The notes: generated by a model not told the origin, from the sequence alone. A stretch of DNA of 64,000 nucleotides from Deltaproteobacteria bacterium (GCA_016937155.1 JAFGWM010000040.1:149267-213266); one strand, 5' to 3'. Counted from the stretch's first letter, positions 29,652 through 45,444 are shown. Numbers and translations are program-made.

Positions 29652-31331
29652 ATGAGTGGCAGATATTTTGTCATTGATATTGGAAGCAGAAACATAAAAG
29701 GAGCTGTCTGTGATGTCAGAAAAAAGGAATTTACTGTAATCGACACCATCGCAGTCAAAAAACCTCTTTTAAAAATAGAATACAGTTCTGCGATTAAAAA
29801 TATCCTTGAAAAACTCGGTGGAAAATCTTCCCAGAATATAATTATTTCCATAGGAGATGGAGTATATCTGAGAAATATGACATTTCCATTCAGTGAAAGA
29901 TCTAAAATAGATCCTCTTGTTCTATATGAATTTGGAGATCAACTTCCTGAAGAAATAGATGATCTTACCACTACCTGGACAATTAATCCCAAGGGGCAGA
30001 GTTCTGAAAGTATTGTTTTGTGCGCAGCTACTTCCTCAGACAATGTTGTTCAGATGATAAACAATATAAATACACTAGGAGGGGATGTATGCCGATTTGT
30101 GATGAGTGGTGCAAGAGCAATGACATTCGGTATTCCTGGGGATAATTATGCCGCGGTTATTGATTTTGGTGCCGGTTTAACAGAAATATCCATTCTGCAC
30201 GGAGATACGGTTGTGATGTCCAGAATTATTTACTCAGGTGTGGAGGATATAATTGATTCTTTGGCTTCATTTACCGGTCAGGATGTGGATGTAATAAGAA
30301 ACTGGATTATTACTTCCGGTGGTGTGAGTATGGAACATCCTGATGAAGAAGAATTTGAAAAAATAATCAGAAATGAACTGGTAAAACAGACTGAAGAATG
30401 GAGAAAATTTATTGGCATATCTGAAAAGGAACTTGGTTTAACAATAGGTGATATAGTTCTTACCGGGGGAGGAAGTGCACTACAGGGACTTTTACCGTTT
30501 GTATCAAATGTTACCGGAAAAAAAGTTACTCATGCTTCGATACCCAATGTGATTATGCCTCAGGAGTGGATTTCAACTATTGCCCTGGTTTCCACAGCAA
30601 CAAAATACAGTAGTGATATGTGTGATTTCAGAAGAGGTGGTTTGGCCAGAGGGGCTTCTTTTTCACTGGTGAAGGACAGAGCTTTAATGGTGATGATGTC
30701 TTTGATGTTGTTTTTTGGATCTCTGGTTGTTTCAGGGGTGGTAAGCCTTAATAATCTTGAAAGACAGGAAAAGGATCTTCTTGGTTTGAGTGCTCTGTTA
30801 TCCAGAGAAGTTCTCGGAAAAAAATTCATGGATCCTGGTTCAATAAATCGAAGTATCAAGAAAAAATTTAAGAAAGGTAAAAAGGGAATAGATAAGTCCG
30901 AGTCTCCGATTCCCAGAATGAGCGCATATACGGTGCTTGGGCTGATATCGAGTAATCTGCCACCAGCTAAACCTTTGAAAAAGGATGGAGAGAAGGCAAC
31001 GGAAGAAAAGCCGGATGAAAAAGAAAAGACTTCTCCTCCTTCAGATAAAAAATCTGATGAAAAAGCAAAAAAACCATCAGATTCAAAACCCGAAGTTGTT
31101 GATGAAAAATTAAAAGAAATCGCTCTGGATATCACCAAAATACATATTAAAACCGGAAAAATTTCAATAACCGGAACTGTGGAAAGAGCCCAGGACGTTG
31201 ATGAAATATCAAAAGGTCTTAAAAGAATTGAATGTTTTCAGGAAATCAGACAGGGAAAAATGAAAACAGTTGGTTCCGGGGAAAATGAAAAAAGGGAATT
31301 TACCCTTGATATAACAATGAACTGTTTATAG
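29652..31331 (+). CDS. gspL: type II secretion protein GspL-like (cytoplasmic actin-like domain, single TM, periplasmic domain)
   Basis: N-terminus YFVIDIGSRNIKGAVCD (PilM/GspL actin-like fold); TM ALMVMMSLMLFFGSLVVSGVV; K/E-rich linker; 559 aa. Confidence 0.7.
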   Translation: MSGRYFVIDIGSRNIKGAVCDVRKKEFTVIDTIAVKKPLLKIEYSSAIKNILEKLGGKSSQNIIISIGDGVYLRNMTFPFSERSKIDPLVLYEFGDQLPEEIDDLTTTWTINPKGQSSESIVLCAATSSDNVVQMINNINTLGGDVCRFVMSGARAMTFGIPGDNYAAVIDFGAGLTEISILHGDTVVMSRIIYSGVEDIIDSLASFTGQDVDVIRNWIITSGGVSMEHPDEEEFEKIIRNELVKQTEEWRKFIGISEKELGLTIGDIVLTGGGSALQGLLPFVSNVTGKKVTHASIPNVIMPQEWISTIALVSTATKYSSDMCDFRRGGLARGASFSLVKDRALMVMMSLMLFFGSLVVSGVVSLNNLERQEKDLLGLSALLSREVLGKKFMDPGSINRSIKKKFKKGKKGIDKSESPIPRMSAYTVLGLISSNLPPAKPLKKDGEKATEEKPDEKEKTSPPSDKKSDEKAKKPSDSKPEVVDEKLKEIALDITKIHIKTGKISITGTVERAQDVDEISKGLKRIECFQEIRQGKMKTVGSGENEKREFTLDITMNCL

Positions 31332-31343
31332 GAAGTCTGACTG

Positions 31344-31967
31344 ATGAAGATTTTTAGTAAAATTGAAAATGGTTTTGATAATCTGAGCTCAAGAGAACAG
31401 AAAATGGTTGTGGCCACCATTATAAGTTCTATGTTTATGATTTGTGGGTTATTTATTTTTCTAATCAGTGATTCTTTTTCTGAACGGGAACAGAGAATAG
31501 ATGGACTCAAGGGAGCTATAAAAAATCTGTACAAAAACAGAGGAAAAGTGGCAAATGTCAAGGATATTCTCGCTTCCTACGAAATGAAAGCAATAAAAAA
31601 ACCTCCCATGCTTCAGGGTTTTATTGATACTGCCGCACAGGATTTTGAACTAAAGGGATTGAATTATAATCCTAAAAAACCAAAGGATCTTGGAGAACAC
31701 AAGGAATATCATGAAGAGAGCGTAGAAGTTAAACTTCATGATGTGGACCTTAAAAAATTTTCACAACTCATGGATAGAGTTGAAAACAACCAGTATCTTA
31801 TTATGGTTACTGAGTTGAAATCAACTTCAAGAAGAGGACATCACGACAGACTTGATTCCTCCATTATTGTTTCTTCATATTACAAAAGAAATGCAAAAGA
31901 GTTGAAAGAGTTAGCCACTGATAAAAAAGGTAAAAATGAAAAACGCAAGAAGAAGGGAGAAAAATAA
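31344..31967 (+). CDS. gspM: type II secretion protein GspM-like
   Basis: 207 aa bitopic protein, N-terminal TM (VVATIISSMFMICGLFIFLI); follows the gspL-like gene. Confidence 0.6.
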   Translation: MKIFSKIENGFDNLSSREQKMVVATIISSMFMICGLFIFLISDSFSEREQRIDGLKGAIKNLYKNRGKVANVKDILASYEMKAIKKPPMLQGFIDTAAQDFELKGLNYNPKKPKDLGEHKEYHEESVEVKLHDVDLKKFSQLMDRVENNQYLIMVTELKSTSRRGHHDRLDSSIIVSSYYKRNAKELKELATDKKGKNEKRKKKGEK

Positions 31968-33145
31968 TGAGAATAAGAACTCTGCTTATCAAAGGTCTTA
32001 AATATTTTTCTGTCTCCACCTTTGGAAGTATTATCTTTTTTCTTTCGTTCTGGATGTTTATGGATTGGTCGCTTATCAAGGATAGAATTGAAAAGGAATT
32101 GGGAAAAGCAACTGGATTTACAGTTAAAATAGGTGATTTCAGTCTGGGTTTTGGAAGTGTTTCTCTGACGGATATAGTGATGACAGGTGACAGTGACAAG
32201 GAAGGGGAGAAACCTACAAAATTTAAAATTTCCACTCTTAATCTGAAATCATCCCTTCTAAGTCTTGCAAGAGGAGAGGAGAATCTTTCCTTTTATATGG
32301 ATGCAATGGGTGGAAGTGTCGAAGGTTCTTATTATAATAGTGAAAATAAAAAGAAATTTTCTCTTGAAATAAAGGATATCAAGGTCAGTGCAATTCCATT
32401 AATGAAGAATTTTATGAGTCTTCCTATTGTTGGAAGAATTACCGGAAAAGGAGAAATGACAATTCCTGGAAAGGGTTTCAGGAAAGCCGATGGAAAACTG
32501 GAGATAGCATGTAATAAATGTATTATCGGAGATGGCAAAACCAAGGTTAAGGCAACTTTTTTAGCCCCTCCTAAAAACAAAGGTAGTCAGAAGTGGGCTC
32601 AGGAAGGTGTTACTCTTCCTCCGATGAATCTTGGTAAATTCGGTGGAAATATTGATATTAAAAATGGTGTGGCTGGCTTCAACGATTTCGTAGCAAAAAG
32701 TTCCGATGGAGAGGCAGAACTTGCAGGAAATATAAAGTTGAGGGATCCTTTAAAAACTTCTATTTCTGACCTTTATTTTAAATTTAAGTTTTCAGATGAA
32801 GCAAAAAAGAAAAATGAAAGTCTTGAGGCTATTGAATTTTCGATGGCTCGTCAGGGAAAAAGACCTGATGGTTTTTATGGCCTGGCTATAACAGGTGCTA
32901 TTTCTAAAATTAAATTCAAGCAGCGCAGACGTGGTATTGTTGATAACAAAAAGAAGCATGCAAACGGCGGAAAGCTTAAGAAACCCCATCGACCGAGGGA
33001 TAGAACTCCCCGAAATCCCAGAAAACCGGGTTTAAACAAAAAATTTGGGGGAAAAATAAAACCGGGACTTTCAAGAAAAATTATGGCACCAAAATTTAAC
33101 AGAGCAGGGAAAATGCCAGGAGCTGCCCCGGCAAAAAAAGACTGA
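31967..33145 (+). CDS. GspN-like bitopic protein with polybasic Pro-rich C-terminal tail
   Basis: 392 aa; N-terminal TM; last gene of the secretion operon; tail KPHRPRDRTPRNPRKPGLNKKFGGKIKPG. Confidence 0.5.
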   Translation: MRIRTLLIKGLKYFSVSTFGSIIFFLSFWMFMDWSLIKDRIEKELGKATGFTVKIGDFSLGFGSVSLTDIVMTGDSDKEGEKPTKFKISTLNLKSSLLSLARGEENLSFYMDAMGGSVEGSYYNSENKKKFSLEIKDIKVSAIPLMKNFMSLPIVGRITGKGEMTIPGKGFRKADGKLEIACNKCIIGDGKTKVKATFLAPPKNKGSQKWAQEGVTLPPMNLGKFGGNIDIKNGVAGFNDFVAKSSDGEAELAGNIKLRDPLKTSISDLYFKFKFSDEAKKKNESLEAIEFSMARQGKRPDGFYGLAITGAISKIKFKQRRRGIVDNKKKHANGGKLKKPHRPRDRTPRNPRKPGLNKKFGGKIKPGLSRKIMAPKFNRAGKMPGAAPAKKD

Positions 33146-33194: not shown

Positions 33195-34430
33195 TTATTC
33201 ACCGGTAATAGAAAGGGTAACGTAGTAGGTGTAAGTTCCACCGGCAGTGTTTTTTCTGCATACACCCACTCCAGCCTTTTTATACCCTGGAATTATAATA
33301 TTCATTCTGTGGGTTTTAGAGGAAAGCCATCCCTTGATAATTTCTTCAGGTGTATATCCTGATGCAACATTTTCTCCCAGAGTAGTTGCTTTAACCTGAT
33401 ATTTTTTTAATCGGTCCTCCGGTCTCCCGGAATTTGGTGATATATGAAGTACAGTTTCAAGAGAGCACATGTCTCTGGAATGATTTTCACTCACAGCAGT
33501 AAGTGTTTTATCTGATATAAATTCAGGAAGACCATTGTTTTTTCTGTAAGTGTTCAAAAGAGATGTGAGAATTTCAGAAAATCTGGTTTCTCCAAGTTCT
33601 TTTTCACTACCCAGATATATTTTTTCCGGAACTGATGGCCAGTTTTTTTTCCCACAAACCAGAGGAAAATCAGCTACCAGTGATGCCCCGTTGCTGTTTG
33701 ATGCCATGAACTGGAATCTGTAAGAGGAAATATCTTTTTTTTCACATACTGAAAGGGCAAGTTTAAAATAATTTTTCGATGAAAGATTGATTTCTCTTGT
33801 TATTGATTTACCAGTAGAGTCAGTAATTGCCACTTCAATACTTTTAAATTCACCTGAAACAATGCCTTCAATGGATGTTTTGGAGTGCATTGCATAAAAT
33901 TTAGAAATAAGAGAAAAATGAACACTTCGCTTTTGTGTAAGCAGGAGCAGAGTTTTACCCTTTTTGTTTTCTTTAACAGCAAGACCGAAATGAGTTATAT
34001 TATGATTTTTTACAAAATGAAGAATGGTTTCAACTACAGCTGTTGATTCGACATCCTTATCAAAATTCATCCACGACTGAAAAATCCAGGGAGCTGTTAT
34101 TCCAAAATGGGGACTCAGTTCGTACATGTAAAAAGGAGAGAGCGTTTTCATATCTCCAATAACAAAGTTTGCCAATTGAGACAGTGTCTGAGAGTAATCT
34201 GGTATGGAATCAGAAGATTTTAATGAAGACTGGATGGAATTAACCAGATAAATGTTATCAGAAACAGAAAATGAGCTGTCAGAGTAATAATTTTTATAGT
34301 CAACTGATGAATGCAGTGAGTTGACTGGTGCAGTTGCAGCAGTGGAACTGTCTGTGGAAGTACTGTTAAGTCCAGATGATGAGGAACAGCCGGATATAAT
34401 CAGAAGAACTGTGAGTAAACACAACATCAT
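33195..34430 (-). CDS. lipoprotein with C-terminal CAP/SCP (PR-1-like) domain
   Basis: lipobox IISGCSSS; C-terminal ...GENVASGYTPEEIIKGWLSSKTHRMNIIIPGYKKAGVG resembles the CAP superfamily. Confidence 0.5.
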   Translation of the reverse strand: MMLCLLTVLLIISGCSSSSGLNSTSTDSSTAATAPVNSLHSSVDYKNYYSDSSFSVSDNIYLVNSIQSSLKSSDSIPDYSQTLSQLANFVIGDMKTLSPFYMYELSPHFGITAPWIFQSWMNFDKDVESTAVVETILHFVKNHNITHFGLAVKENKKGKTLLLLTQKRSVHFSLISKFYAMHSKTSIEGIVSGEFKSIEVAITDSTGKSITREINLSSKNYFKLALSVCEKKDISSYRFQFMASNSNGASLVADFPLVCGKKNWPSVPEKIYLGSEKELGETRFSEILTSLLNTYRKNNGLPEFISDKTLTAVSENHSRDMCSLETVLHISPNSGRPEDRLKKYQVKATTLGENVASGYTPEEIIKGWLSSKTHRMNIIIPGYKKAGVGVCRKNTAGGTYTYYVTLSITGE

Positions 34431-34433
34431 GAC

Positions 34434-34934
34434 TCAGGGCAATTCTCCAGGACCGCAAAATTTCACTGTGGATACAGTGGCATAATTTTCATTCTCCCCA
34501 GGTACCTTCTGTGATCCGTAAGTATTGGTTTCCCTGCATTCATAACCACCTCTGCAGTCATCCTGTGATGAACATTTTTTCATACAGAATCTGGTTTCAT
34601 AATCTGTGCTGGCACAATATCCTGATGACAGACAGACTTCTCCAGCAAGGCAGTCATCAGTGGGAGTAAGCGAACTGATTGAATCTTCAGTTTGAGGATT
34701 ACACTCATAGATGAGGCTTTGAACAGGATAAAACGCAATACACCTGGAACCTTCAGGACATGAAGACTCTGTGCAGTTGGCGATTGTACAGTAGCCATTG
34801 GGAGAAGCCGTATCGCAAATTAAATCACCAGTAGTTGAGCAGTCAATGTTCTGCGAGCAGCTGTCTCCGATTTCCGGATCACACCCCGCAAATAAGAGAG
34901 AAAATACAAATAAAACAGCAAATAAATTTTTCAA
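34434..34934 (-). CDS. Cys-rich secreted lipoprotein (paralogous to 96..872)
   Basis: 166 aa; lipobox LFAGCDPE; Cys-rich modules CSQNIDCSTTGDLIC, CSSQDDCRGGYEC. Confidence 0.55.
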   Translation of the reverse strand: MKNLFAVLFVFSLLFAGCDPEIGDSCSQNIDCSTTGDLICDTASPNGYCTIANCTESSCPEGSRCIAFYPVQSLIYECNPQTEDSISSLTPTDDCLAGEVCLSSGYCASTDYETRFCMKKCSSQDDCRGGYECRETNTYGSQKVPGENENYATVSTVKFCGPGELP

Positions 34935-35324
34935 CTGAAAATCCTTGGGTTAATCATGTAAATTGCAACCGGTCAGGGTGGCATTTTATTCTCTGTAAAC
35001 ATAGATAAAAACAAAAAAAGGGCAACAATATTATTGTCAGATTTAGTATGATAATTATCCATTCTTTATTGTGCAAAAAGAAACGTTAAAAAATTAAAAA
35101 ATATTCATTTAGGCTGTTGTCAATCCCTCATGATTGGTTATAAAGGCATGACATGGGATTTTTTTAACTTTTACTACTTTCGCGCGGATGCTTTCTGATT
35201 TTCAGAAAGGAACCTGACCCAAAAGGGCCATGGGCGAACAAAACTACTTACTGACTAATACAGACACCAAAAAAGTCTGTTCAGAAAATAAAAACCCGTA
35301 TTACAAACCATACAGGAGGAAAGA

Positions 35325-37241
35325 ATGGGTCTAACTGTAACTGAAAAAGTATTATCTACTCATGTGGGAGATGGAAAACTTGAAAAAGGGAGTGTAATTG
35401 GTCTTAGGATAGATCAATGCCTAACTCAGGATTCAACTGGTACTATGGCCTGGCTTCAATTTGAATCTCTGGGTATTCCAAGAGTTAAATGTGAAACAGC
35501 TGTTTCCTATGTTGACCACACATCACTCAGTTTCAAGGGAGAATCCAGTGATGATCACCTTTTTCTGAAAACAAGTGCTCAGAAATTTGGAGCTTTTTAT
35601 TCTAAAGCCGGAAATGGTGTATGTCATCAGGTGCATTATGAGCGTTTTGCCGCTCCGGGGAAAACTCTTCTTGGTAGTGATTCTCACACCCCAACTTCTT
35701 CATCACTTGGTATGATTGCTATTGGAGCAGGTGGAGCGGATGTAGCAGTTGCGATGGGAGGTGGTTACTTCTATATGAGAGTTCCGAAAGTAATGAAAAT
35801 AAATCTTGAGGGATTTCTCCGCAAAGGTGTAAGTGCCAAAGATGTAATTCTTGAGGTGTTAAGAAGAATCAGTGTAAAGGGAGGGGTAGGATATATTCTT
35901 GAATATACAGGGCCTGGAGTTGAGACACTTTCCATACCTGAGCGTGCAACAATAACAAATATGGGAGCTGAAACAGGTGCCACAACATCGATTTTCCCAT
36001 CTGATGAAATCACAAGAGATTTTCTTAGAATGCAGGGGAGAGAAAGAGAGTGGGTGAAACTTGCTGCAGATGAAGATGCTGTATATGACAGTGAAATGAC
36101 CATAGATCTTTCAATACTTGAACCACTGGTGGCTATGCCTGGAAGTCCTGATAACATCAAACCTGTAAAAGAAGTTGAAGGGTTTGAAATTCAGCAGGTT
36201 TACATTGGAAGTTGTACAAATGGTTCATACCGAGATCTTTCAGCAGGTGCTCTTATGCTTGAGGGAAGACGGGTGAGTAAGGATATTGAGGTTATTTTGA
36301 GTCCAGGATCCAGACAGGTTGAACAGCTTCTTTTAGATGATGGAAGTTACAACACATATGTTAAAGCTGGTGTGAGAATTGTAGAACCTGGATGTCATGC
36401 TTGTATTGGCATGGGCTATGTGCCGGGATACGGCCATCACAGTGTGAGAACAGTAAACCGTAACTGGTTTGGAAGAGGGGGATCTAATGATGCCCGTTTA
36501 ATACTTTCAAGTGTTGAAACTGCAATAGCCAGCGCAATAGCCGGAAAGCTTGCTGATCCCACCAAAGTTGATTTTGATGATTTCGATGATTTTTACTATG
36601 AAGATGGATACATAGTTGATGATTCAATGCTGCTGCCACCTGTAGCTCAGGCTGATAGTGCAAAAATAGAAATATCCAGAGCTCCCAACATTAAACCAAT
36701 CAAACCTCAACTTCCACCTGAAAAGATCCTCAAGGGTAAAGTTCTGCTTAAGGTTGGTGATGGAATTTCTACGGATGATATTCTTCCTGCAGGATCATTA
36801 ACACAGCATCTTCGTTCAAATCTTCCGGAGATTGCTAAATATACTTACTACTACATTGATAAAACTTTCGCTTCCAGAGCACTTGAGGCCAATGGTGGAT
36901 TTATAGTCGGTGGTGAAAATTATGGACAGGGTTCCAGCCGTGAACACGCAGCCCTGGCCCCCTGGCAGTTGAATATCAAAGCTGTAATAGCAAAAAGTTA
37001 TGCAAGAATTCATAAAGCCAATCTAATAAACGCTGGAGTAATACCATTTGTCTGTAAAGATGATTTCGATTTTGAAGATGAAATAAGTATAAATCTTGAT
37101 ACGTTAGCTTCTGGAAAAGTTAAAGCCCAGAATGTTACAAAAAACAGTGAAATGGTTCTGGAAGTTGAACTTGGTGAAAGAGATTATGATATCATTATGG
37201 CTGGTGGACTTTTAGCCTATACCAGACAGAAACACTCATAA
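35325..37241 (+). CDS. aconitase-family hydratase (fused catalytic plus swivel domains; probable aconitate hydratase)
   Basis: 638 aa; Fe-S ligand contexts IGSCTNGSY and EPGCHACIGMG; substrate motifs GSDSHT and GENYGQGSSREHAALA; sits directly upstream of aclB-aclA. Confidence 0.8.
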   Translation: MGLTVTEKVLSTHVGDGKLEKGSVIGLRIDQCLTQDSTGTMAWLQFESLGIPRVKCETAVSYVDHTSLSFKGESSDDHLFLKTSAQKFGAFYSKAGNGVCHQVHYERFAAPGKTLLGSDSHTPTSSSLGMIAIGAGGADVAVAMGGGYFYMRVPKVMKINLEGFLRKGVSAKDVILEVLRRISVKGGVGYILEYTGPGVETLSIPERATITNMGAETGATTSIFPSDEITRDFLRMQGREREWVKLAADEDAVYDSEMTIDLSILEPLVAMPGSPDNIKPVKEVEGFEIQQVYIGSCTNGSYRDLSAGALMLEGRRVSKDIEVILSPGSRQVEQLLLDDGSYNTYVKAGVRIVEPGCHACIGMGYVPGYGHHSVRTVNRNWFGRGGSNDARLILSSVETAIASAIAGKLADPTKVDFDDFDDFYYEDGYIVDDSMLLPPVAQADSAKIEISRAPNIKPIKPQLPPEKILKGKVLLKVGDGISTDDILPAGSLTQHLRSNLPEIAKYTYYYIDKTFASRALEANGGFIVGGENYGQGSSREHAALAPWQLNIKAVIAKSYARIHKANLINAGVIPFVCKDDFDFEDEISINLDTLASGKVKAQNVTKNSEMVLEVELGERDYDIIMAGGLLAYTRQKHS

Positions 37242-37277
37242 ATTATATAGTGTTACACTACAAGGAGAAAACACAAA

Positions 37278-38564
37278 ATGGCAGTTAGAGGAATTAGAGA
37301 ATACGATGGGAAAAAGTTAATGGCTTCTCTTCTCCGAAGGTATTCAGATGATAAAGTTTCCATGCGTGGCGATTTTGTTCTGGTGGATCCCCAAACGGAT
37401 TTTGAAGCTCTTTTAAATGAAAATCCCTGGCTTGGTAAAGACAAACTGGTTGCAAAACCAGATATGCTCTTCGGAAAAAGAGGAAAGAATAATCTTCTTA
37501 AACTTAACGCTACATGGGAAGAAGCTGTTTCCTGGATCAGGGGAAAAATGGCAGAAGACACTGTATTAAGCGGGGTAACCGGAAAACTGACTCATTTTCT
37601 TGTGGAGCCTTTTATCCCTCACGAAGATGAATATTATATTGCTATCAGAAGTTTCAGAGACCATGATGTAATATATTTTTCAACAGAAGGTGGTGTAAAC
37701 GTCGAGGAAAACTGGGAAAAAGTTAAAGAAATAACCATTCCTGTAATGACTGATGGTAAAATTTCTGCAGCAGATGATTTTGATGCATTTAAAACACTTC
37801 CTCTTTCCGGAGAGGAACTGGCCAGTGTTGCACCGTTTGTTAATGCTCTTTATAAGTTTTATTTTGAACAGGGATTTGCTTATCTGGAAATTAATCCCTT
37901 TGCTATTAAGGATGGTGTTGTTGTTCCACTGGATCTGGTTGCAAAACTTGATGATACAGCAGCCTTTGAAAATCTTGACTCATGGGGAAGAACTTTGGAT
38001 TTTCCCGCTCCTTTTGGCAGAACTCCTACGAAGGAAGAAGCTTTTGTTAAAGAACTGGATTCGAAAACCGGTGCTTCACTTAAACTTACAGTACTGAATC
38101 CTGCTGGTCGTATATGGCCAATGATAGCTGGTGGTGGTGCAAGTGTTATCTATGCTGATACCGTGAGTGATCTGGGATATATTGATGAACTTGGAATGTA
38201 TGGAGAATACAGTGGTGATCCCAATGAGGAATTAACTTATCAGTATGCATGTACAGTTCTGGATCTTATTACCCGTAATCCTGATGGACGTGGTAAAGCT
38301 CTGCTTATTGGTGGAGGTATTGCAAACTTCACAGATGTTGCAAAAACATTTACCGGAATTATTCGGGCGGTTGAAAAATATCGTCAGCAGATCATGGATG
38401 CAAAAGTTAAAATTTTTGTACGTCGTGGTGGTCCTAATTATAAAGTTGGCCTTGAGAAAATGAGAAATCTTGGTGACAACCTTGGAGTTCCAATTGAGGT
38501 TTACGGACCCGAAACCCATATGTCAAAAATTGTACCCATGGCCATAGACTATATTAATGGATAA
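37278..38564 (+). CDS. aclB: ATP-citrate lyase beta subunit (ATP-grasp domain)
   Basis: 428 aa; N-terminus closely parallels human ACLY (IREYDGKKLM..., DWARLL-type region NPWLGKDKLVAKPDMLFGKRGK, FLVEPFIPH). Confidence 0.85.
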   Translation: MAVRGIREYDGKKLMASLLRRYSDDKVSMRGDFVLVDPQTDFEALLNENPWLGKDKLVAKPDMLFGKRGKNNLLKLNATWEEAVSWIRGKMAEDTVLSGVTGKLTHFLVEPFIPHEDEYYIAIRSFRDHDVIYFSTEGGVNVEENWEKVKEITIPVMTDGKISAADDFDAFKTLPLSGEELASVAPFVNALYKFYFEQGFAYLEINPFAIKDGVVVPLDLVAKLDDTAAFENLDSWGRTLDFPAPFGRTPTKEEAFVKELDSKTGASLKLTVLNPAGRIWPMIAGGGASVIYADTVSDLGYIDELGMYGEYSGDPNEELTYQYACTVLDLITRNPDGRGKALLIGGGIANFTDVAKTFTGIIRAVEKYRQQIMDAKVKIFVRRGGPNYKVGLEKMRNLGDNLGVPIEVYGPETHMSKIVPMAIDYING

Positions 38565-38586
38565 TGGAATATAAGGAGCATACCAA

Positions 38587-40452
38587 ATGAGTAGATCTGA
38601 TTACCAGTTATTTACCCGTGAAACACGGGCTATTATTTTTAATCTGCAGGCAAATGCAATCCAGAGAATGCTTGATTTCGATCATGTCTGCAAAAGAGAA
38701 AAGCCTTCGGTTGCGGCTGTTGTAAATCCAAATGCCAAGCAGGGCGGGTTTCATAAAGTATTTTGGGGTACAAAAGAGATTCTGATTCCTGTTTACAACA
38801 CAATTGATCAGGCTGTTACCAAACACAATGATGCTGATGTTATGATAAACTTTGCATCATTCAGAAGTGCTTTTCAGACAAGTGTTGATGCACTGCATGC
38901 TGACACCATTAAAACTGTGGTTATCATAGCTGAGGGAGTTCCTGAAAGAAGAGCAAGGGAGCTTGCTGCTATGGCACAGAAAATGGGAAAAATAATTATT
39001 GGACCTGCAACCGTCGGGGGAATTCTGGCTGGTGGTTTTAAAATTGGTAACACCGGGGGAACGATTGAAAATATCATTGAATCAAAACTTCATCTTCAGG
39101 GCAGCGTTGGTTTTGTATCAAAGTCCGGTGGGATGAGTAATGAGGCTTACAATATCATTTCTCACAACAGTGATGGTCTTTATGAGGGTATAGCTATAGG
39201 TGGAGATTCGTATCCCGGAAGTACACTTTTGGATCATCTTTTGAGATATGAAGCTAATCCTGATGTAAAAATGATGGTTTGTCTTGGTGAAGTCGGTGGA
39301 ACAGAAGAATACAGAATAGTCGAGGCACTCAAGGAAAAACGCATTACCAAGCCCCTGGTGTGCTGGGTCACAGGAACTATTGCTTCCAGAATGAAGGGAG
39401 AAGTTCAGTTTGGTCATGCGGGAGCCAAAGCCGGGGCTTCTAATGAGACAGCAGAAGCAAAAAATAAAGCTCTAGCTGAAGCAGGAGCAATTGTTCCGGT
39501 TTCTTTTGATGATTATGGTGAAAAGATAAATCAGGAGTTTAAAAAACTTGAAGCTGCTGGAAAAATCGGCTCCCGTGAAGAGACAGAGGTTCCTTTTGTT
39601 CCTGTTGATTTCAAGACTGTTGCTAATAAGGTGAGAAAACCCACTGGTTTTATATGTACAATTACTGATGACAGTGGTGATGAACCTCTTTACTCTGGCG
39701 TTCCCATGAGTAAGGTTGTCGAGAACAATATGCCTCTTGGGGAAATGATTGGTCTTTTATGGTTCAAGAAAAAATTACCTGAATTTGCTGCAAGATACAT
39801 TGAACTTGTTCTAAGGCTTACTGCTGATCACGGACCATGTGTTAGTGGTGCCCATAACACAATAGTTACAGCAAGAGCAGGTCGGGATCTTATGAGCAGT
39901 GTTGCCGCTGGTATTCTCACCATAGGTCCAAGATTCGGTGGAGCTGTGAGCGGAGCAGCAAAACATTTCAGCAGTGCTCTTAAAAGCGGACTTTCCCCTC
40001 TTGAGTTTGTGAATGATATGAAAAAGAAGGGAATTAATATTCCCGGTATCGGTCACAGAATCAAAAGCGCTACTAATCCTGATATTCGTGTGACACTTAT
40101 CAAAGCTTTCGCAAAAGAGAATTTTGTTTCAACTCCCCATCTGGATTATGCACTGGAAGTTGAAAAAATTACACTAACTAAAAGAAATAATCTGATTCTC
40201 AATGTTGATGGTGCTATTGGAGTAATTTTCCTTGATTTAATGGAAAGCTGCGGAGAAATTTTCTCTGATCAGGAAAAATCAGAAATTGTAGAATTTGAAA
40301 TACTTAATGGTCTTTTCATGCTTGGAAGAACAATAGGAATGATAGGTCACTACTTTGATCAGAAGAGACTCAGAAGTGCTCTGTATCGTCATCCAATGGA
40401 TGATGTTCTCTACGACCTTCCTGATTCATCGGATCTGGGTTACGACTTCTAA
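38587..40452 (+). CDS. aclA: ATP-citrate lyase alpha subunit (CoA-binding, phospho-His and citryl-CoA lyase domains)
   Basis: 621 aa; CoA-ligase motif GFVSKSGGMSNE; phosphohistidine loop QFGHAGAKAG; citrate-synthase-like C-terminal domain. Confidence 0.85.
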   Translation: MSRSDYQLFTRETRAIIFNLQANAIQRMLDFDHVCKREKPSVAAVVNPNAKQGGFHKVFWGTKEILIPVYNTIDQAVTKHNDADVMINFASFRSAFQTSVDALHADTIKTVVIIAEGVPERRARELAAMAQKMGKIIIGPATVGGILAGGFKIGNTGGTIENIIESKLHLQGSVGFVSKSGGMSNEAYNIISHNSDGLYEGIAIGGDSYPGSTLLDHLLRYEANPDVKMMVCLGEVGGTEEYRIVEALKEKRITKPLVCWVTGTIASRMKGEVQFGHAGAKAGASNETAEAKNKALAEAGAIVPVSFDDYGEKINQEFKKLEAAGKIGSREETEVPFVPVDFKTVANKVRKPTGFICTITDDSGDEPLYSGVPMSKVVENNMPLGEMIGLLWFKKKLPEFAARYIELVLRLTADHGPCVSGAHNTIVTARAGRDLMSSVAAGILTIGPRFGGAVSGAAKHFSSALKSGLSPLEFVNDMKKKGINIPGIGHRIKSATNPDIRVTLIKAFAKENFVSTPHLDYALEVEKITLTKRNNLILNVDGAIGVIFLDLMESCGEIFSDQEKSEIVEFEILNGLFMLGRTIGMIGHYFDQKRLRSALYRHPMDDVLYDLPDSSDLGYDF

Positions 40453-40530
40453 TATACTGTTTCGATTTAAATCTTCTATCTCTAATAAATATACCTTGAA
40501 AACTGATATTCAGATGATAAATATCAAGGT

Positions 40531-42186
40531 ATGAATTTCAAAAAATATTACTTACTTTACATTATTTTTCTGTTTGTAGGCTGTGATTCCGATGAGAACC
40601 CGCTTAATAACAACGTTTTCAATAATAACAATGTTCAGGTCTATAATCTGGAGGTAGTTTACCCACCTGCTGGAGAAATAAATATAGCGGCGGGTGAAAC
40701 CGATGTTTTAGAATTAAAGCTTAGTGATGAAAAAGGAAATCCTGTTAAAGAAGAGCGCATAGATTTTATGATTGTTGGTACTGCTGGAGGTAGTTCACTG
40801 GGGACTACTTCAGGAATTACAGATAGTCAGGGAAGTGTTTCAATTGTACTTCGGACTGGGACCATGAGTGCTCATTTTACTATTACGGGGGAGCATACCA
40901 ATGCTGCACCAGTATCAATAGATGTGACAGTATCAGAAGAGGGTTCAGTAGATTTTCATGCCACAATCGATTATTCCGGGAAGTATGATTTGGAAGAGAT
41001 AGACGAGATAGAGGTTGGGGTTTCTTTTAACAGTAACTGTGAAAAATCACTTGAATCAATGATTATTTCAAGAAAAAGATATCTTGATGATTTTAATGGT
41101 GTCGCTGTTTTTGAAGATCTACCGGTTGATCTTCCATTTGTTCTTCTATCACTTTTTCGCAGTTCTGATGATAATCTTCTTGCATGGGGTTGTGTTGAGC
41201 CGGATCCAATGACACTTGTTCCAGGAAATACAGTTGATATTTCTATACCTACTGATGATTATGAAATGCTTATGACAGAGCCATTTCCTGTTACATACAC
41301 AGTTTATACAGGCTTATATGGAGAATTTCTTGATGAGTATCTTCAGGACTGGTTTACAGTTGGGGAATGTAACTATGCTTTAGCTGCGAGGTTCTTTGAT
41401 TGTCTGGTATCCTGGCTTGAGGGAAATCCTTCAGATGCATGTGAAAGAGGTGAAGAAACACCTCTTAGTGCAGAGATTACTCATCTAAGAGGAACCTTTA
41501 ATATTGATGGGTGTAGAGGTCCCTATAATTCGGAAGGTGATATTAGTCTGGAATATATTTTTCAAAATATGGCTGAAGGAATAGATGATATTCAGTACAG
41601 TCTTATCAGGACAGTTGATGAGTTGAATATAAAACCGTTCCAGATAATTGAACTTAATTCTCAGCTTCTTTACACTGATCAAATGCTTTCAAATAATGTT
41701 GAAAGTATTTCATTCCCAAGACTTGATACAGATAAATGGTTAATAATGCAGGGCTATGAGGAAACATGCAGATGGTCAGCATCTGTTCCGGTACTTACCC
41801 AAAATATCAGTATTTTTGGGGAATATATGAAGTGCAACGTTTTAAAGACGATTTTAAGTGTAATTTCCTCCTGGGATTTTGATGGTCTTGGAATATCCAT
41901 GACGGGTGATTCGATAAAAAATCTTATTCTTGAATATGTTGATGAAGAGTATGGTGGCAATCCGTATGAGGTAATGGCTGAGATTTTCCACGAAAATCTG
42001 GTTTCTGACGATATTATCAATGCTTTTCAATTGTTTGTTGACAGTCTCAGACTTGAATCAATTGGAATTACTACTGGAGATCTCGTTTATTCAGGTGAAT
42101 TTTCGTTTTATGATCAGGATATGGATGGAAATGTTGAGTCGGTGGATTATTCCATAGATGTTGATTTGTATCCCCAGGGATTTTAA
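40531..42186 (+). CDS. hypothetical lipoprotein with Asn-rich linker
   Basis: lipobox LFVGCDSDEN; linker NPLNNNVFNNNNVQ; 551 aa, no recognisable catalytic motif. Confidence 0.5.
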   Translation: MNFKKYYLLYIIFLFVGCDSDENPLNNNVFNNNNVQVYNLEVVYPPAGEINIAAGETDVLELKLSDEKGNPVKEERIDFMIVGTAGGSSLGTTSGITDSQGSVSIVLRTGTMSAHFTITGEHTNAAPVSIDVTVSEEGSVDFHATIDYSGKYDLEEIDEIEVGVSFNSNCEKSLESMIISRKRYLDDFNGVAVFEDLPVDLPFVLLSLFRSSDDNLLAWGCVEPDPMTLVPGNTVDISIPTDDYEMLMTEPFPVTYTVYTGLYGEFLDEYLQDWFTVGECNYALAARFFDCLVSWLEGNPSDACERGEETPLSAEITHLRGTFNIDGCRGPYNSEGDISLEYIFQNMAEGIDDIQYSLIRTVDELNIKPFQIIELNSQLLYTDQMLSNNVESISFPRLDTDKWLIMQGYEETCRWSASVPVLTQNISIFGEYMKCNVLKTILSVISSWDFDGLGISMTGDSIKNLILEYVDEEYGGNPYEVMAEIFHENLVSDDIINAFQLFVDSLRLESIGITTGDLVYSGEFSFYDQDMDGNVESVDYSIDVDLYPQGF

Positions 42187-42431
42187 AATTATATAGAATG
42201 TTAAATTATTGTGTTAAAACAGAATGTTATAAAGTTATTCGGAAAAAAAGAAGAATCAAAAAAAATTTAGTATGTCTGTGATATTCACAATGTTTTTTTG
42301 AACTAATTGAAATAGCTCTTGACACAGGGCTAAAAATCATTATCAATACCGTGTCTTATTTTGCTTTCGGTGGTTGAATAAAAACATCGAATGATTGGTT
42401 TTGAACATCAGAAGGTTTTAAAGGTAGAATT

Positions 42432-43046
42432 ATGGCAAGATATTTAGGCCCCAGAGTTAAAGTATTAAGATCATTGGGATTAGATCTCCCAGGACTTACT
42501 TCCAAATCAATGCAGCGCAGGCCCGCAAGACCTGGACAGCATGGTGCAAAGAGAAAAGGTAGAAAGTCCGATTTCGGTCGTCAGTTGTCTGAGAAGCAGA
42601 AAATCAGATATAATTACGGAATTGGTGAAAAACAGCTTCGTCGTCTTATGAAAGAAGCCAGAAGATCAAAACAGGCAACTGGTGAAAAACTGGGTGAACT
42701 TCTTGAAAGAAGACTTGATAATGTGGTATTTCGTGCAGGTTACGCAAGAACTATTCCTCAGGCAAGACAGCTTGTAAACCATGCTCACTTTACTGTCAAC
42801 GGCCGTAAAGTTGATGTTCCTTCCTTCCGTGTAAAAGAAGGTGACACAATTACTCTCAGGACAAAAAGTGAAAATCTTGGTGTTGTGGCTGAGTCACTTG
42901 AATCACCGACTCTTTCAAGACCTGACTGGATTGATGTGGATAATGGGAAAAAACTGACTCAGGTTAAAAGTCTCCCCACAGTTGAATCAATTCCCTTTGA
43001 GCTGGATCTTCAGGCAGTTGTTGAATACTACTCCAAGAGAATGTAA
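42432..43046 (+). CDS. rpsD: 30S ribosomal protein S4
   Basis: MARYLGPRVKVLRSLG... N-terminus and S4 domain (RRLDNVVFRAGYARTIPQARQLVNHAHFTVNGRKVDVPSF). Confidence 0.95.
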   Translation: MARYLGPRVKVLRSLGLDLPGLTSKSMQRRPARPGQHGAKRKGRKSDFGRQLSEKQKIRYNYGIGEKQLRRLMKEARRSKQATGEKLGELLERRLDNVVFRAGYARTIPQARQLVNHAHFTVNGRKVDVPSFRVKEGDTITLRTKSENLGVVAESLESPTLSRPDWIDVDNGKKLTQVKSLPTVESIPFELDLQAVVEYYSKRM

Positions 43047-43737: not shown

Positions 43738-44778
43738 ATGGATAAAATTGTTGAATGTGTTCCAAATTTTTCAGATGGGGTGAATCCTGAAGTTCACGCT
43801 GCAATTGGAAAGGCTATTTCCTCTGTAAAGGGAGTTAGACTTCTGGATATAGATCCCGATGCTTCATATAACCGTGTTGTTGTGACTTTTGTTGGGGAGC
43901 CTCAGCCCTGTGTAGAAGCTGCACTAAGAGCGACCAGGGTAGCCGTCGATATGATCGATATGCGAACACAAAAAGGTGAACATCCAAGATTTGGCGCAAT
44001 TGATGTCTGTCCCTTTGTTCCTGTCAGAGGTGTTACGATGGCAGACTGCGTGGAGTTATCAAAACAGTATGGGAAAAGAGCATCTGAAGATTTTGGAGTT
44101 CCTGTTTTTCTGTATGAACAGAGTGCATCAAGACCGGACAGAAAAAACCTTGCCACAGTAAGGGCCGGGGAATATGAAGGTCTTGAAGAAAAATTTAAAA
44201 ATCCTGACTGGGCTCCTGATTTTGGTCCCGCCAAATTCGTTCCGCATTTCGGTGCAGTTGCAACAGGAGCAAGATTTTTTCTTGTCGCCTATAATGTTAA
44301 TATGGGAACAAGTGATGTTTCGATAACACATGATATTGCACTGACAATCAGACAAATGGGAAAACCACGCAAAAAGGATGGAAAATTTGTTCTTAATGCT
44401 GCCGGGAAGAAGATTTTTGATCCCGGAAAATTGAGAATGGTAAAGGCAATGGGTGTTCCACTTGAGAATGATCCGAGAACTCAGATTTCAATGAATTTGA
44501 ACAACTATCTTATTACTCCTCCTCATGTTGCTTTTGAAGAAGCCAGATTTGAGGCTGAAAAAAGAAATATAAAAGTAACTGGAAGTGAAATTGTGGGTCT
44601 TGTCCCCCTTGCCCCCGTTATTATGGCGGCTCACTACTACCTTCATACTCAGGGTGAAAGTGGGCTAAAAATGACAGAAGAGGAACTTGTGGGTGTAGCT
44701 CATGATTATCTCGGATTGTCGGATTACAAGAAATTTGAAAGTTCCAAAAAAATAATTGAAATGGCCGTAAGGTCATAA
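43738..44778 (+). CDS. glutamate formimidoyltransferase (FtcD transferase domain, stand-alone)
   Basis: N-terminus MDKIVECVPNFSDG matches the formiminotransferase domain; 346 aa. Confidence 0.8.
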   Translation: MDKIVECVPNFSDGVNPEVHAAIGKAISSVKGVRLLDIDPDASYNRVVVTFVGEPQPCVEAALRATRVAVDMIDMRTQKGEHPRFGAIDVCPFVPVRGVTMADCVELSKQYGKRASEDFGVPVFLYEQSASRPDRKNLATVRAGEYEGLEEKFKNPDWAPDFGPAKFVPHFGAVATGARFFLVAYNVNMGTSDVSITHDIALTIRQMGKPRKKDGKFVLNAAGKKIFDPGKLRMVKAMGVPLENDPRTQISMNLNNYLITPPHVAFEEARFEAEKRNIKVTGSEIVGLVPLAPVIMAAHYYLHTQGESGLKMTEEELVGVAHDYLGLSDYKKFESSKKIIEMAVRS

Positions 44779-44793
44779 TTCAGGAGGAAAAAA

Positions 44794-45444
44794 ATGGCCG
44801 ATAAATCACAGGCTTCATTACTCGCGTATCTACCATTAGCCAGTTTCATTCAGAATGTTTCATCCCGTTCACCGGCTCCAGGTGGTGGAAGTGTAGCCGC
44901 CCTCAGTGGATCTCTTGGTGCTTCACTGGGAGCGATGGTATGCCGATTGACCATTGGTAAGAAAAAATACAAGGAAGTTGAAGATTTGATGAGAAATACA
45001 GAAAAACTTCTGTTACCTCTAAGAGATAAATTGCGTGATCTTATTGATGATGATACTCAGGCATTTGACAGTGTTATGGAAGCTTTTGGCCTTCCTGATG
45101 GAACTCCTGAAGAGAAGAAGATTAAGGATGAACAGATTATGCTTGCTTCACAGAAGGCTGCTATGGTTCCACTTCATGTTATGAAGAAGTGTCTGGAGGC
45201 GGTTGAACTCCTTAAAGATGTTGCTCATTATGGAAATGTGAACTCCATTTCGGATGCTGGTGTCGCAAATTACTGCCTTAAAACTGGTTTTGAAGGTGCA
45301 AAATTAAATGTTCTGATAAATACAAAGGATATGGAAGATTCTCAGTGGAAAAGTGAAGTTATGAACGAGGTTAAAGAATTATCTGTAGTTTTTGAAGATG
45401 CATATAATATAAATGACAGGTTTGTTCTTGAGAGACTTGGTTGA
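44794..45444 (+). CDS. formimidoyltetrahydrofolate cyclodeaminase (FtcD cyclodeaminase domain, stand-alone)
   Basis: motif SPAPGGGSVAALSGSLGASLGAMVCRLTIGKKKY; 216 aa; adjacent to the formiminotransferase gene. Confidence 0.8.
   Translation: MADKSQASLLAYLPLASFIQNVSSRSPAPGGGSVAALSGSLGASLGAMVCRLTIGKKKYKEVEDLMRNTEKLLLPLRDKLRDLIDDDTQAFDSVMEAFGLPDGTPEEKKIKDEQIMLASQKAAMVPLHVMKKCLEAVELLKDVAHYGNVNSISDAGVANYCLKTGFEGAKLNVLINTKDMEDSQWKSEVMNEVKELSVVFEDAYNINDRFVLERLG

What the first reader, a model, noticed from the sequence alone, without database searches (positions are those of the whole stretch)
35325..40452. Aconitase-family gene directly coupled to ATP-citrate lyase aclB-aclA
ATP-citrate lyase is the signature enzyme of the reductive TCA cycle and is otherwise rare in bacteria. 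Here it sits in an apparent three-gene operon after a 638-aa aconitase-family hydratase, in a genome whose other genes (mevalonate pathway HMG-CoA reductase, abundant secreted hydrolases) look heterotrophic. The cluster could indicate reductive TCA CO2 fixation, or a citrate-to-acetyl-CoA shunt feeding lipid and isoprenoid synthesis as in eukaryotes.
Basis: partly seen in the sequence, partly recalled or inferred. Interest (0 to 1): 0.5.

Follow-up and report, generated by a model that had tools for sequence, protein, structure and literature searches.

The report
Aconitase–ATP-citrate lyase operon in a Myxococcota MAG
An uncultured, apparently heterotrophic myxobacterium-like organism carries an intact aconitase plus two-subunit ATP-citrate lyase operon of the archaeal/eukaryote-like type, which most likely links citrate to acetyl-CoA in ordinary heterotrophic metabolism and should not be read as evidence of CO2 fixation.

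Summary
Three tightly spaced + strand genes encode a canonical short aconitase (35325-37241), AclB (37278-38564) and AclA (38587-40452). Each has its own Shine-Dalgarno site, and a promoter-like box conserved in a relative lies upstream. All catalytic residues of ACL and aconitase are present.

The ACL is genuine, not CCS/CCL or SCS. It belongs to the Methanothrix/Asgard/Thermoplasmata "eukaryote-like" lineage (855 bits to M. concilii ACLY, 755 to human, 396 to Chlorobium).

The acn-aclB-aclA block is conserved in every relative of a 100%-supported Myxococcota clade, with variable flanks. Related lineages insert an NADP-isocitrate dehydrogenase (acn-icd-aclBA), which defines a citrate/isocitrate/2-oxoglutarate module.

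No rTCA partner gene (OGOR, PFOR, fumarate reductase) lies in about 74 kb of this genome or near the operon in six relatives. The surrounding genes look like those of a protein-degrading heterotroph.

I favour a heterotrophic, near-equilibrium citrate node run mainly towards acetyl-CoA plus oxaloacetate. An ATP-conserving citrate synthase role is the main rival, and rTCA autotrophy is unlikely. The direction of flux is inferred, not shown.

The genes are already auto-annotated in public MAGs, so this is a new member of a known kind and of modest interest.

The parts
35117..35144 (+). Candidate sigma-70-type promoter of the operon, TTGTCA-N16-TATAAA. It implies a leader of about 175 nt before acn.
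   Evidence: This is the only well-conserved block when the 390-nt upstream region is aligned with the syntenic region of the related MAG locus L003, where it reads TTGTCA-N16-TATAAG. The consensus scan missed it because the -10 hexamer ends in A. Its function is inferred, not shown.
35325..37241 (+). acn: short (638 aa) aconitate hydratase of the Aquifex/TIGR01342 type
   Evidence: NF005558 815 bits (cut-off 612); TIGR01342 794 bits (cut-off 719). Best solved relative is pig mitochondrial aconitase at 268 bits. Fe-S ligand cysteines lie in GSCTN (295-299) and CHAC (361-364), and the catalytic GSSREH is at 540-545 (motif hits at 536-549 including flanks). DSHTP, NMGAE and NRNWFGR are present. 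A 100% identical protein, P0301, is annotated 'aconitate hydratase [Deltaproteobacteria bacterium]'.
37278..38564 (+). aclB: ATP-citrate lyase beta (small) subunit, with an ATP-grasp domain and a citrate-binding domain
   Evidence: Pfam Citrate_synth_N plus Citrate_bind. Scores 538 bits to M. concilii ACLY subunit 6hxi_A, 382 to the human ACLY N-terminal part, 155 to Chlorobium AclB and 45 to CCS large subunit. The citrate-site residues are conserved: G313 (human G309), N350/T352 in IANFT (human N346/T348) and R384 in VRRGGPNY (human R379).
38587..40452 (+). aclA: ATP-citrate lyase alpha (large) subunit, with a CoA-binding domain, a phospho-histidine domain and a fused citryl-CoA lyase module
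   Evidence: Pfam CoA_binding + Ligase_CoA + Citrate_synt. Scores 855 bits to M. concilii 6hxi_B, about 755 to human ACLY, 396 to Chlorobium 6hxj_B, 85 to CCS small subunit and 51 to CCL. Conserved residues: E116 (human E599), H277 in GHAGA (H760), H415 (H900), H490/R491 (H975/R976) and D541 (D1026; the residue mutated in PDB 6znw).

Best explanation
SHOWN: the three genes form one conserved operon. It encodes a catalytically intact [4Fe-4S] aconitase and a genuine heteromeric ATP-citrate lyase of the archaeal/eukaryote-like lineage, in an uncultured low-GC member of a Myxococcota clade.

FROM ESTABLISHED ENZYMOLOGY of the solved homologues: AclB binds ATP and citrate. His277 of AclA is phosphorylated and passes the phosphate to citrate. 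CoA then attacks to give citryl-CoA, and the C-terminal citrate-synthase-like module of AclA (H415, H490/R491, D541) cleaves it to acetyl-CoA plus oxaloacetate. Aconitase equilibrates citrate with isocitrate.

INFERRED: the pair is a near-equilibrium 'citrate node' of a heterotroph, not a CO2-fixation marker. Related lineages add NADP-isocitrate dehydrogenase to the same operon, so the module connects 2-oxoglutarate, isocitrate and citrate with acetyl-CoA plus oxaloacetate.

My favoured direction is cleavage. Carbon from protein and amino-acid breakdown (the Glu/His/Pro/Arg family, via 2-oxoglutarate) or from citrate itself would be turned into acetyl-CoA for lipids, mevalonate-pathway isoprenoids or acetate-linked ATP formation, plus oxaloacetate. 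This route avoids the succinate-oxidation step, which is blocked when electron acceptors are scarce.
For: Enzyme identity:
- Family and domain scores above curated cut-offs.
- Ranking against solved structures: ACL far above CCS/CCL/SCS.
- All catalytic residues conserved.

Operon:
- Spacers of 36 and 22 nt, each with a Shine-Dalgarno site.
- A conserved promoter-like box upstream.
- acn-aclB-aclA synteny in all examined members of the 100%-supported clade, with otherwise unrelated flanks.

Module logic:
- acn-icd-aclB-aclA in L011 and L024, icd-aclB-aclA in Thermoplasmata L006, and aclB-aclA-icd with acn adjacent in Asgard L019.

Heterotrophic setting:
- Type II secretion operon, C25 and S8 peptidases, a nuclease, FtcD plus cyclodeaminase (the last steps of His to Glu, 3.3 kb downstream) and a class II HMG-CoA reductase.
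- HMG-CoA synthase lies about 6 kb from the operon in the Kofleriaceae relative.

No rTCA partner genes in about 74 kb of this genome or in six relatives' neighbourhoods.

Cleavage direction:
- Cleavage is the physiological direction of the eukaryotic members of this ACL lineage (established knowledge).
- The reaction is near equilibrium and slightly favours cleavage (-8.0 kJ/mol at 1 mM; PMC13147460, Table 1).
- A CitA/DcuS-type sensor kinase sits next to aclBA in a Syntrophomonadaceae locus, which suggests citrate-induced catabolic use there.
Against: - The direction of flux cannot be read from sequence.
- The whole genome could not be inspected, so the presence or absence of citrate synthase, OGOR, PFOR, IDH, acetate-forming enzymes and terminal oxidases is unknown.
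- A bacterium has no compartment barrier, so the eukaryotic rationale for ACL (exporting acetyl units) does not apply directly.
- Cleavage costs one ATP.
- The mevalonate link rests on loose proximity in 2 of about 7 genomes.
- In some clade members the aconitase partner has lost catalytic residues while aclBA stays conserved. ACL function therefore does not strictly need this aconitase copy.
- The Asgard cluster, with ACL in the citrate-synthase position of a full TCA gene set, fits the reverse direction equally well.
Confidence: 0.45

Rival explanations
1. ACL runs 'backwards' as an ATP-conserving citrate synthase. Acetyl-CoA + oxaloacetate + ADP + Pi give citrate + CoA + ATP, and aconitase (plus IDH elsewhere in the genome) pulls citrate onward. 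The operon would then encode the first two steps of an oxidative TCA cycle, or of the oxidative branch to 2-oxoglutarate, in an energy-limited organism living at low oxygen.
For: - The reaction is near equilibrium (PMC13147460, Table 1).
- There is a biochemical precedent in Desulfobacter postgatei (Moller et al. 1987, Arch Microbiol 148:202, as cited in PMC9560492 and PMC12137691).
- In Asgard locus L019, aclBA sits with icd, acn, SDH, fumarase and SCS, where a citrate synthase would be expected.
- acn-icd-aclBA operons encode exactly the oxidative branch.
- Clade members come from groundwater MAGs (HGW-Deltaproteobacteria-17/-22).
- L024 places the operon beside NADH dehydrogenase genes.
Against: - Citrate formation through ACL needs unusually high acetyl-CoA/CoA and oxaloacetate, and a low ATP/ADP ratio.
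- It has been shown in only one organism, whose ACL lineage was not examined here.
- Absence of a conventional citrate synthase in this genome is untested.
- The oxygen relationship of the organism is unknown.
Confidence: 0.3
2. The operon marks an autotrophic reductive TCA cycle, and the organism fixes CO2, at least facultatively.
For: ACL is the accepted signature enzyme of the rTCA cycle and is used as such in MAG surveys (PMC12930757, Methods). Aconitase and ACL catalyse two consecutive rTCA steps. The rest of the genome was not visible.
Against: - The enzyme scores only 396/155 bits against the Chlorobium rTCA ACL, versus 855/538 against Methanothrix ACLY, and it branches far from Chlorobiaceae.
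- No OGOR, PFOR, fumarate reductase, hydrogenase or sulfur-oxidation genes lie in about 74 kb here or beside the operon in six relatives.
- The context is that of a secreting, protein-degrading heterotroph.
- Other carriers of this ACL lineage seen here include acetoclastic Methanothrix, Asgard archaea and Syntrophomonadaceae. By my own general knowledge, none of these is known for rTCA autotrophy.
Confidence: 0.1
3. The proteins are not a true ACL but a citryl-CoA synthetase/lyase or succinyl-CoA synthetase relative, or the aconitase-family gene acts on another substrate (homoaconitate, isopropylmalate or methylcitrate).
For: All these families are homologous. Weak sub-threshold hits to SCS, CCL, IPMI and homoaconitase models are listed.
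Against: - CCS/CCL/SCS score 45-96 bits against 538-855 bits for ACL.
- The ACL-specific Citrate_bind domain and the fused CCL module are present.
- All ACL catalytic residues are conserved.
- The aconitase passes two aconitate hydratase models above their cut-offs, while every IPMI and homoaconitase model is below its cut-off.
Confidence: 0.02

Closest known systems
Methanothrix (Methanosaeta) concilii/soehngenii two-subunit ACLY (PDB 6HXI, 6ZNW)
   Same: Same two-gene aclB-aclA architecture and subunit lengths. It is the best solved match (855 and 538 bits; Methanothrix sequences are 61-62% identical to AclA). Catalytic residues are identical, including D541.
   Different: The host is archaeal. 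In Methanothrix the aclBA pair stands alone, with no adjacent aconitase. The window's enzyme belongs to a separate, 100%-supported bacterial clade.
Eukaryotic ACLY (human, PDB 6O0H/6POE; fungal P0121)
   Same: About 755 bits. E599, H760, H900, H975/R976 and D1026 are all matched. The reaction chemistry is the same. The eukaryotic cytosol also pairs ACLY with an aconitase and an NADP-IDH (established knowledge).
   Different: In animals and some fungi, eukaryotic ACLY is a single fused chain with a regulatory linker; here there are two genes. The window clade never groups with the fused sequences (0 of 500 bootstraps; the prokaryote/fused split has 98% support). The eukaryotic rationale, exporting acetyl units across the mitochondrial membrane, does not apply to a bacterium.
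Chlorobium limicola AclBA (PDB 6HXJ), the classical rTCA ACL
   Same: Same subunit organisation and same reaction.
   Different: Only 396 and 155 bits, and a distant branch in the tree. It works in an autotrophic cycle together with OGOR and PFOR, which were not found near this operon.
Desulfobacter postgatei ACL used as an ATP-forming citrate synthase (Moller et al. 1987)
   Same: It shows that ACL can serve a heterotrophic, oxidative TCA cycle. This is the basis of the main rival explanation.
   Different: It is known from enzyme assays in a sulfate reducer.
Hydrogenobacter citryl-CoA synthetase + citryl-CoA lyase (PDB 6HXQ, 6HXP)
   Same: Homologous domains, and the same overall conversion carried out in two steps.
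   Different: They are separate enzymes, and they score only 45-85 and 51 bits. Here the lyase module is fused to AclA.

Membership tests
Heteromeric ATP-citrate lyase (EC 2.3.3.8, AclB/AclA) | Small subunit with an ATP-grasp fold plus the ACL-specific citrate-binding domain and its citrate-contact residues | tested here: met
   Pfam Citrate_synth_N (E 2e-72) and Citrate_bind (E 1e-83). G313, N350/T352 and R384 align with human G309, N346/T348 and R379.
Heteromeric ATP-citrate lyase (EC 2.3.3.8, AclB/AclA) | Large subunit with a CoA-binding domain and a catalytic phospho-histidine in a GHAGA loop | tested here: met
   CoA_binding plus Ligase_CoA. H277 in evqfGHAGAka aligns with human H760, and E116 with E599.
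Heteromeric ATP-citrate lyase (EC 2.3.3.8, AclB/AclA) | Citryl-CoA lyase (citrate-synthase-homology) module fused to the C-terminus of AclA, with its catalytic His/His-Arg/Asp | tested here: met
   Citrate_synt domain at residues 385-600. H415, H490/R491 and D541 align with human H900, H975/R976 and D1026.
Heteromeric ATP-citrate lyase (EC 2.3.3.8, AclB/AclA) | Closer to characterised ACLs than to CCS/CCL or succinyl-CoA synthetase | tested here: met
   855/538 bits to M. concilii ACLY, against 85/45 (CCS), 51 (CCL) and at most 96 (SCS).
Heteromeric ATP-citrate lyase (EC 2.3.3.8, AclB/AclA) | ATP- and CoA-dependent cleavage of citrate to acetyl-CoA plus oxaloacetate | not testable with these tools
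   Needs an enzyme assay of the expressed AclAB.
Aconitate hydratase, short Aquifex-type (NCBIfam NF005558 / TIGR01342) | Score above the curated equivalog cut-offs, with IPMI and homoaconitase models below theirs | tested here: met
   815 bits against 612, and 794 against 719. All LeuC, HacA and IPMI models are below their cut-offs.
Aconitate hydratase, short Aquifex-type (NCBIfam NF005558 / TIGR01342) | Three Cys ligands of the [4Fe-4S] cluster, plus the catalytic Asp-Ser-His, Asn-Arg-Asn...Arg and Ser-Ser-Arg motifs | tested here: met
   GSCTN, CHAC, DSHTP, NMGAE, NRNWFGR and GSSREH are all present. The equivalent of pig Arg580 was not checked.
Reductive TCA cycle (autotrophic CO2 fixation) | Citrate-cleaving enzyme present | tested here: met
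   An intact ACL.
Reductive TCA cycle (autotrophic CO2 fixation) | 2-oxoglutarate:ferredoxin oxidoreductase, pyruvate:ferredoxin oxidoreductase and fumarate reductase in the same genome | tested here: inconclusive
   None is found in the 64-kb window, in 10 kb beyond its left end, or within 10 kb of the operon in six relatives. The rest of the genome could not be searched.
Reductive TCA cycle (autotrophic CO2 fixation) | Autotrophic growth or 13C-bicarbonate assimilation | not testable with these tools
   The organism is uncultured and known only as a MAG.
Eukaryote-type fused ACLY | AclB-like and AclA-like parts in one polypeptide of about 1100 aa | tested here: not met
   Two separate genes with a 22-nt spacer. 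The clade branches outside the fused sequences (98% split).

The most novel reading that the evidence does not exclude
In this anaerobic or low-oxygen, protein-feeding Myxococcota lineage, the acn-aclBA module does something not described for bacteria. There are two possibilities:
(i) It replaces citrate synthase as an ATP-conserving entry into the TCA cycle.
(ii) It forms the core of a glutamate-family fermentation route: 2-oxoglutarate is reductively carboxylated to isocitrate, converted to citrate, and cleaved by ACL to acetyl-CoA plus oxaloacetate. By my own arithmetic, not by any tool result, this route yields as much energy as the methylaspartate pathway.

A further strand is that the operon was exchanged between Asgard archaea and Myxococcota. 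The nearest subgroup, with 83% support, contains Promethearchaeota.
Probability: 0.25. Interest if true: 0.55.

Novelty: new member of a known kind. Interest (0 to 1): 0.3.

Why it matters
ACL is widely used as the single diagnostic gene for calling rTCA autotrophy in metagenome-assembled genomes (for example PMC12930757, Methods). This case shows a well-conserved ACL operon in a lineage whose visible gene content is heterotrophic. Its enzyme belongs to the archaeal/eukaryote-like branch, not to the Chlorobium-type autotroph branch it was compared with. Such genomes could therefore be miscalled as autotrophs.

The case also adds a bacterial clade, and a recurrent acn-(icd)-aclBA module, to the prokaryotic relatives of eukaryotic ACLY. 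That is relevant to the debate on where the eukaryotic cytosolic acetyl-CoA system came from, although the trees here do not place Myxococcota next to eukaryotes. If ACL proves to run as an ATP-forming citrate synthase in these organisms, a curiosity known from one sulfate reducer would become a wider energy-saving strategy.

Tried and rejected
1. CCS/CCL or SCS identity: rejected on scores, domains and catalytic residues.
2. Myxococcota as sister or donor of eukaryotic ACLY: rejected. Support was 0 of 500 bootstraps in the concatenated AclB+AclA NJ tree, and the prokaryote/fused split has 98% support. In the 159-sequence AclA tree the fungal sequence falls outside the prokaryotic group.
3. 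A specific Asgard sister relationship: unresolved, at 44% and 25%. These are NJ trees only; no ML software was available.
4. Riboswitch or other known RNA in the leader or operon: no Rfam match at E<=1.
5. Consensus promoter and terminator scan: promoter-like sites were no more frequent than in shuffles, and there is no terminator directly after aclA. The conserved promoter box was found only by comparison with a relative.
6. Search for TCA or rTCA neighbours, using an Asgard-derived panel (SCS, fumarase, SDH, IDH) by tblastn against the window and all loci: nothing in the Myxococcota clade.
7. Extending the view of the source contig: 10 kb gained on the left, with no TCA genes. The right-end protein was not on record.
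8. Literature: no paper found on ACL in Myxococcota or on the physiology of Methanothrix ACL.
9. A whole-genome check for citrate synthase, OGOR and PFOR was not possible with the tools and caps available.


Full report
OBSERVATION. Pfam and NCBIfam assign the first to aconitate hydratase. NF005558 scores 815 bits against a cut-off of 612, and TIGR01342 scores 794 against 719. Every isopropylmalate or homoaconitate model is below its cut-off. The second ORF carries the ACL ATP-grasp domain and the ACL-specific citrate-binding domain. The third carries CoA-binding, CoA-ligase and citrate-synthase-like domains. The spacers are 36 and 22 nt, and each start codon is preceded by AGGAGG or AAGGAG.

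ARE THESE REAL, ACTIVE ENZYMES? Against all solved structures, AclA scores 855 bits to the Methanosaeta (Methanothrix) concilii ACLY large subunit and about 755 to human ACLY. It scores 396 to Chlorobium limicola AclA, 85 to citryl-CoA synthetase, 51 to citryl-CoA lyase and at most 96 to succinyl-CoA synthetase. AclB gives 538, 382, 155 and 45 bits in the same order.

Aligned to native human numbering, the key AclA residues are all present:
- phospho-histidine: H277 = H760, in GHAGA
- E116 = E599
- lyase-module residues: H415 = H900, H490/R491 = H975/R976, D541 = D1026 (the residue mutated in PDB 6ZNW)

The AclB citrate-site residues are also present (G313, N350/T352, R384). The aconitase keeps its three cluster cysteines and the DSHTP, NMGAE, NRNWFGR and GSSREH motifs. 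This is a genuine, apparently functional ACL with a canonical aconitase.

WHOSE GENES, AND WHICH KIND OF ACL? A protein 100% identical to the window's aconitase is public as 'MAG: aconitate hydratase [Deltaproteobacteria bacterium]' on a 254-kb contig, and in the assembly of run SRR13394436. The nearest AclA relatives (75-85% identity) are annotated 'ATP citrate synthase [Myxococcota bacterium]', HGW-Deltaproteobacteria-17/-22, Kofleriaceae and Polyangia MAGs.

In a 159-sequence NJ tree these form a 12-member clade with 100% bootstrap support. The clade is nested in a mostly archaeal group (Methanothrix, Asgard, Thermoplasmata) with scattered bacteria (Riflebacteria, Beggiatoa, Anaerolineae, Syntrophomonadaceae). 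The Chlorobiaceae representative is far away.

A concatenated AclB+AclA tree (19 taxa, 1008 columns, 500 replicates) gave:
- the clade: 100%
- prokaryotes versus fused eukaryote-type sequences: 98%
- Myxococcota plus eukaryotes: 0%
- Myxococcota plus Promethearchaeota: only 25%
- a wider subgroup holding the clade, two other deltaproteobacterial/Myxococcales MAGs, Riflebacteria, locus L024 and Promethearchaeota: 83%

Relatives at 40% GC and at 63% GC both carry the operon, with about 78% AclA identity. The operon therefore looks old in this lineage and not a recent import.

CONSERVED MODULE. acn-aclB-aclA is present in every member of the clade for which DNA was obtained: the window, L003, L013/14, L015/16, L017 (= L001) and L021. 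L002 is truncated. Except for the two closest relatives, the flanks are unrelated.

Upstream, the only block conserved between the window and L003 is TTGTCA-N16-TATAA(A/G), at window 35117-35144. I read it as the operon's promoter. No Rfam element is present.

Outside the clade, the same ACL lineage is repeatedly joined to an NADP-isocitrate dehydrogenase:
- acn-icd-aclB-aclA in L011 and L024
- icd-aclB-aclA in a Thermoplasmata locus
- aclB-aclA-icd with an adjacent short aconitase, inside a full SDH/fumarase/SCS cluster, in a Promethearchaeota genome

Methanothrix and Riflebacteria have aclBA alone. A Syntrophomonadaceae locus places a CitA/DcuS-type sensor kinase beside aclBA. So the recurring functional unit is the three-step link between acetyl-CoA plus oxaloacetate and 2-oxoglutarate. 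The window's clade keeps two of the three steps in one operon.

WHAT IT IS PROBABLY FOR. No 2-oxoglutarate:ferredoxin oxidoreductase, pyruvate:ferredoxin oxidoreductase, fumarate reductase, citrate synthase or IDH gene occurs in the window, in 10 kb beyond its left end, or within 10 kb of the operon in six relatives. The visible genome is that of a secreting, protein-degrading heterotroph:
- a full type II secretion operon
- C25 and S8 peptidases and a nuclease
- FtcD plus cyclodeaminase (histidine to glutamate) 3.3 kb downstream
- a class II HMG-CoA reductase

Combined with the enzyme's distance from the Chlorobium rTCA ACL, this makes rTCA autotrophy unlikely (about 0.1). It is not excluded, because the rest of the genome was out of reach.

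The ACL reaction is near equilibrium (-8 kJ/mol for cleavage at 1 mM; PMC13147460, Table 1), so two heterotrophic readings remain.

I favour cleavage (0.45). Citrate or isocitrate, fed by 2-oxoglutarate from amino-acid breakdown through a reversible NADP-IDH, is split into acetyl-CoA and oxaloacetate. This route to acetyl-CoA avoids succinate oxidation when electron acceptors are scarce, and it can feed lipid and mevalonate-pathway synthesis or acetate-linked ATP formation.

The main rival (0.3) is the Desulfobacter postgatei solution, in which ACL runs as an ATP-forming citrate synthase (Moller et al. 1987, cited in PMC9560492 and PMC12137691). The Asgard TCA cluster would suit that reading well. 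Which one holds turns on whether these genomes have a conventional citrate synthase and on flux measurements. Both are listed as next steps.

COMPARISON WITH THE KNOWN. The closest characterised enzyme is the Methanothrix two-subunit ACLY used as the structural model for human ACLY. The window's enzyme shares its architecture and catalytic set, but sits in bacteria and is operon-linked to aconitase. It works like eukaryotic ACLY chemically, but it is not a member of the fused eukaryotic form. It is only distantly related to the Chlorobium rTCA enzyme.

ACL homologues in Asgard archaea and in 'various bacterial clades' have been reported (bioRxiv 10.1101/2022.10.25.513756). The origin of eukaryotic ACL among archaeal groups is debated (PMC11976288). 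I found no paper on the Myxococcota clade or on the acn-aclBA operon.

VERDICT. The finding is real and the gene calls are right. The rTCA reading is not supported, and the 'citrate to acetyl-CoA shunt' reading is plausible but unproven. The genes are already named correctly in public annotation, and the enzymes belong to well-understood families. It is therefore a new member of a known kind and of modest interest (0.3). Its main value is as a caution against using ACL alone to call autotrophy, and as a lead on a possibly ATP-saving or fermentative use of ACL in anaerobic heterotrophs.

Noticed in passing
L013:6860-8680 (= L014); L017:6704-8668; L021:6715-8664: In some clade members the aconitase gene upstream of aclBA is degenerating while aclBA stays about 78% identical. 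In L013 it is an intact 606-aa ORF that has lost DSHTP, NMGAE, one cluster Cys, NRNWFGR and GSSREH, and it scores only 323 bits against a cut-off of 612. In L017 and L021, GSSREH has become GVLREH or GVVREH, so the catalytic serine is lost. These may be pseudo-enzymes with a new role.
   Followed up: partly
proteins P0002-P0016, P0024, P0025, P0045 (about 1000-1040 aa): These are AclA homologues with a partial internal duplication, in which residues ~147-613 are repeated. In P0002 the second copy lacks the GHAGA histidine, and the first copy has TADRDP in place of TADHGP. In the NJ tree they group with the fungal ACLY at 76%. Their source organisms are unknown.
   Followed up: partly
L019:1-15135 (Promethearchaeota, GCA_048938105.1): An Asgard TCA gene cluster holds SCS, fumarase and SDH ABCD, then aclB-aclA-icd and a convergent short aconitase. 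ACL sits in the position where a citrate synthase would be expected.
   Followed up: no
L007:6608-8263 (-): A DcuS/CitA (DpiB)-family sensor histidine kinase lies divergent from aclBA in a Syntrophomonadaceae MAG, with a TIGR00529 membrane protein downstream. This hints at citrate- or dicarboxylate-induced ACL expression there.
   Followed up: no
window 43738-45444 (+): Glutamate formimidoyltransferase (FtcD, 358 bits) is followed by a formimino-THF cyclodeaminase/cyclohydrolase. These are the last steps of histidine breakdown to glutamate, 3.3 kb downstream of aclA.
   Followed up: no
window 50534-51676 (-); L017:1-1064: A class II HMG-CoA reductase lies 10 kb downstream of the operon (257 bits, just under the 260 cut-off of the 'degradative' model). 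In the Kofleriaceae relative, an HMG-CoA synthase lies about 6 kb upstream of acn. This is loose proximity of mevalonate genes to ACL in 2 of about 7 genomes.
   Followed up: partly
window 20073-33145 (+): A complete type II secretion operon is present: secretin GspD, ATPase GspE, GspF, pseudopilins, GspK, a PilM-like GspL, and a GspN of the Leptospira type (TIGR04411, 154 bits).
   Followed up: no
window 4491-6566 (-); 16401-17657 (-); 61790-63532 (+): A subtilisin-like protease carries four myxobacterial cysteine-rich acidic repeats (TIGR02232). A 418-aa protein has a FYVE-type zinc-finger match (28.1 bits, E 2e-6, marginally above the 27.8 gathering cut-off). There is also a C25 (gingipain-family) peptidase.
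   Followed up: no
window 35295-35316 and 34300-42600: Terminator-like hairpins are more frequent than in shuffles (15 against 5.9 +/- 2.6). One hairpin, stronger on the - strand, abuts the acn Shine-Dalgarno site. It is not conserved in L003.
   Followed up: partly
window 38587-40452: The protein database returned a 100% identical entry for the window's aconitase (P0301) but nothing above 85% for its AclA, although the Logan contig clearly encodes the same 621-aa product. This is probably a quirk of the word-index candidate cap.
   Followed up: no
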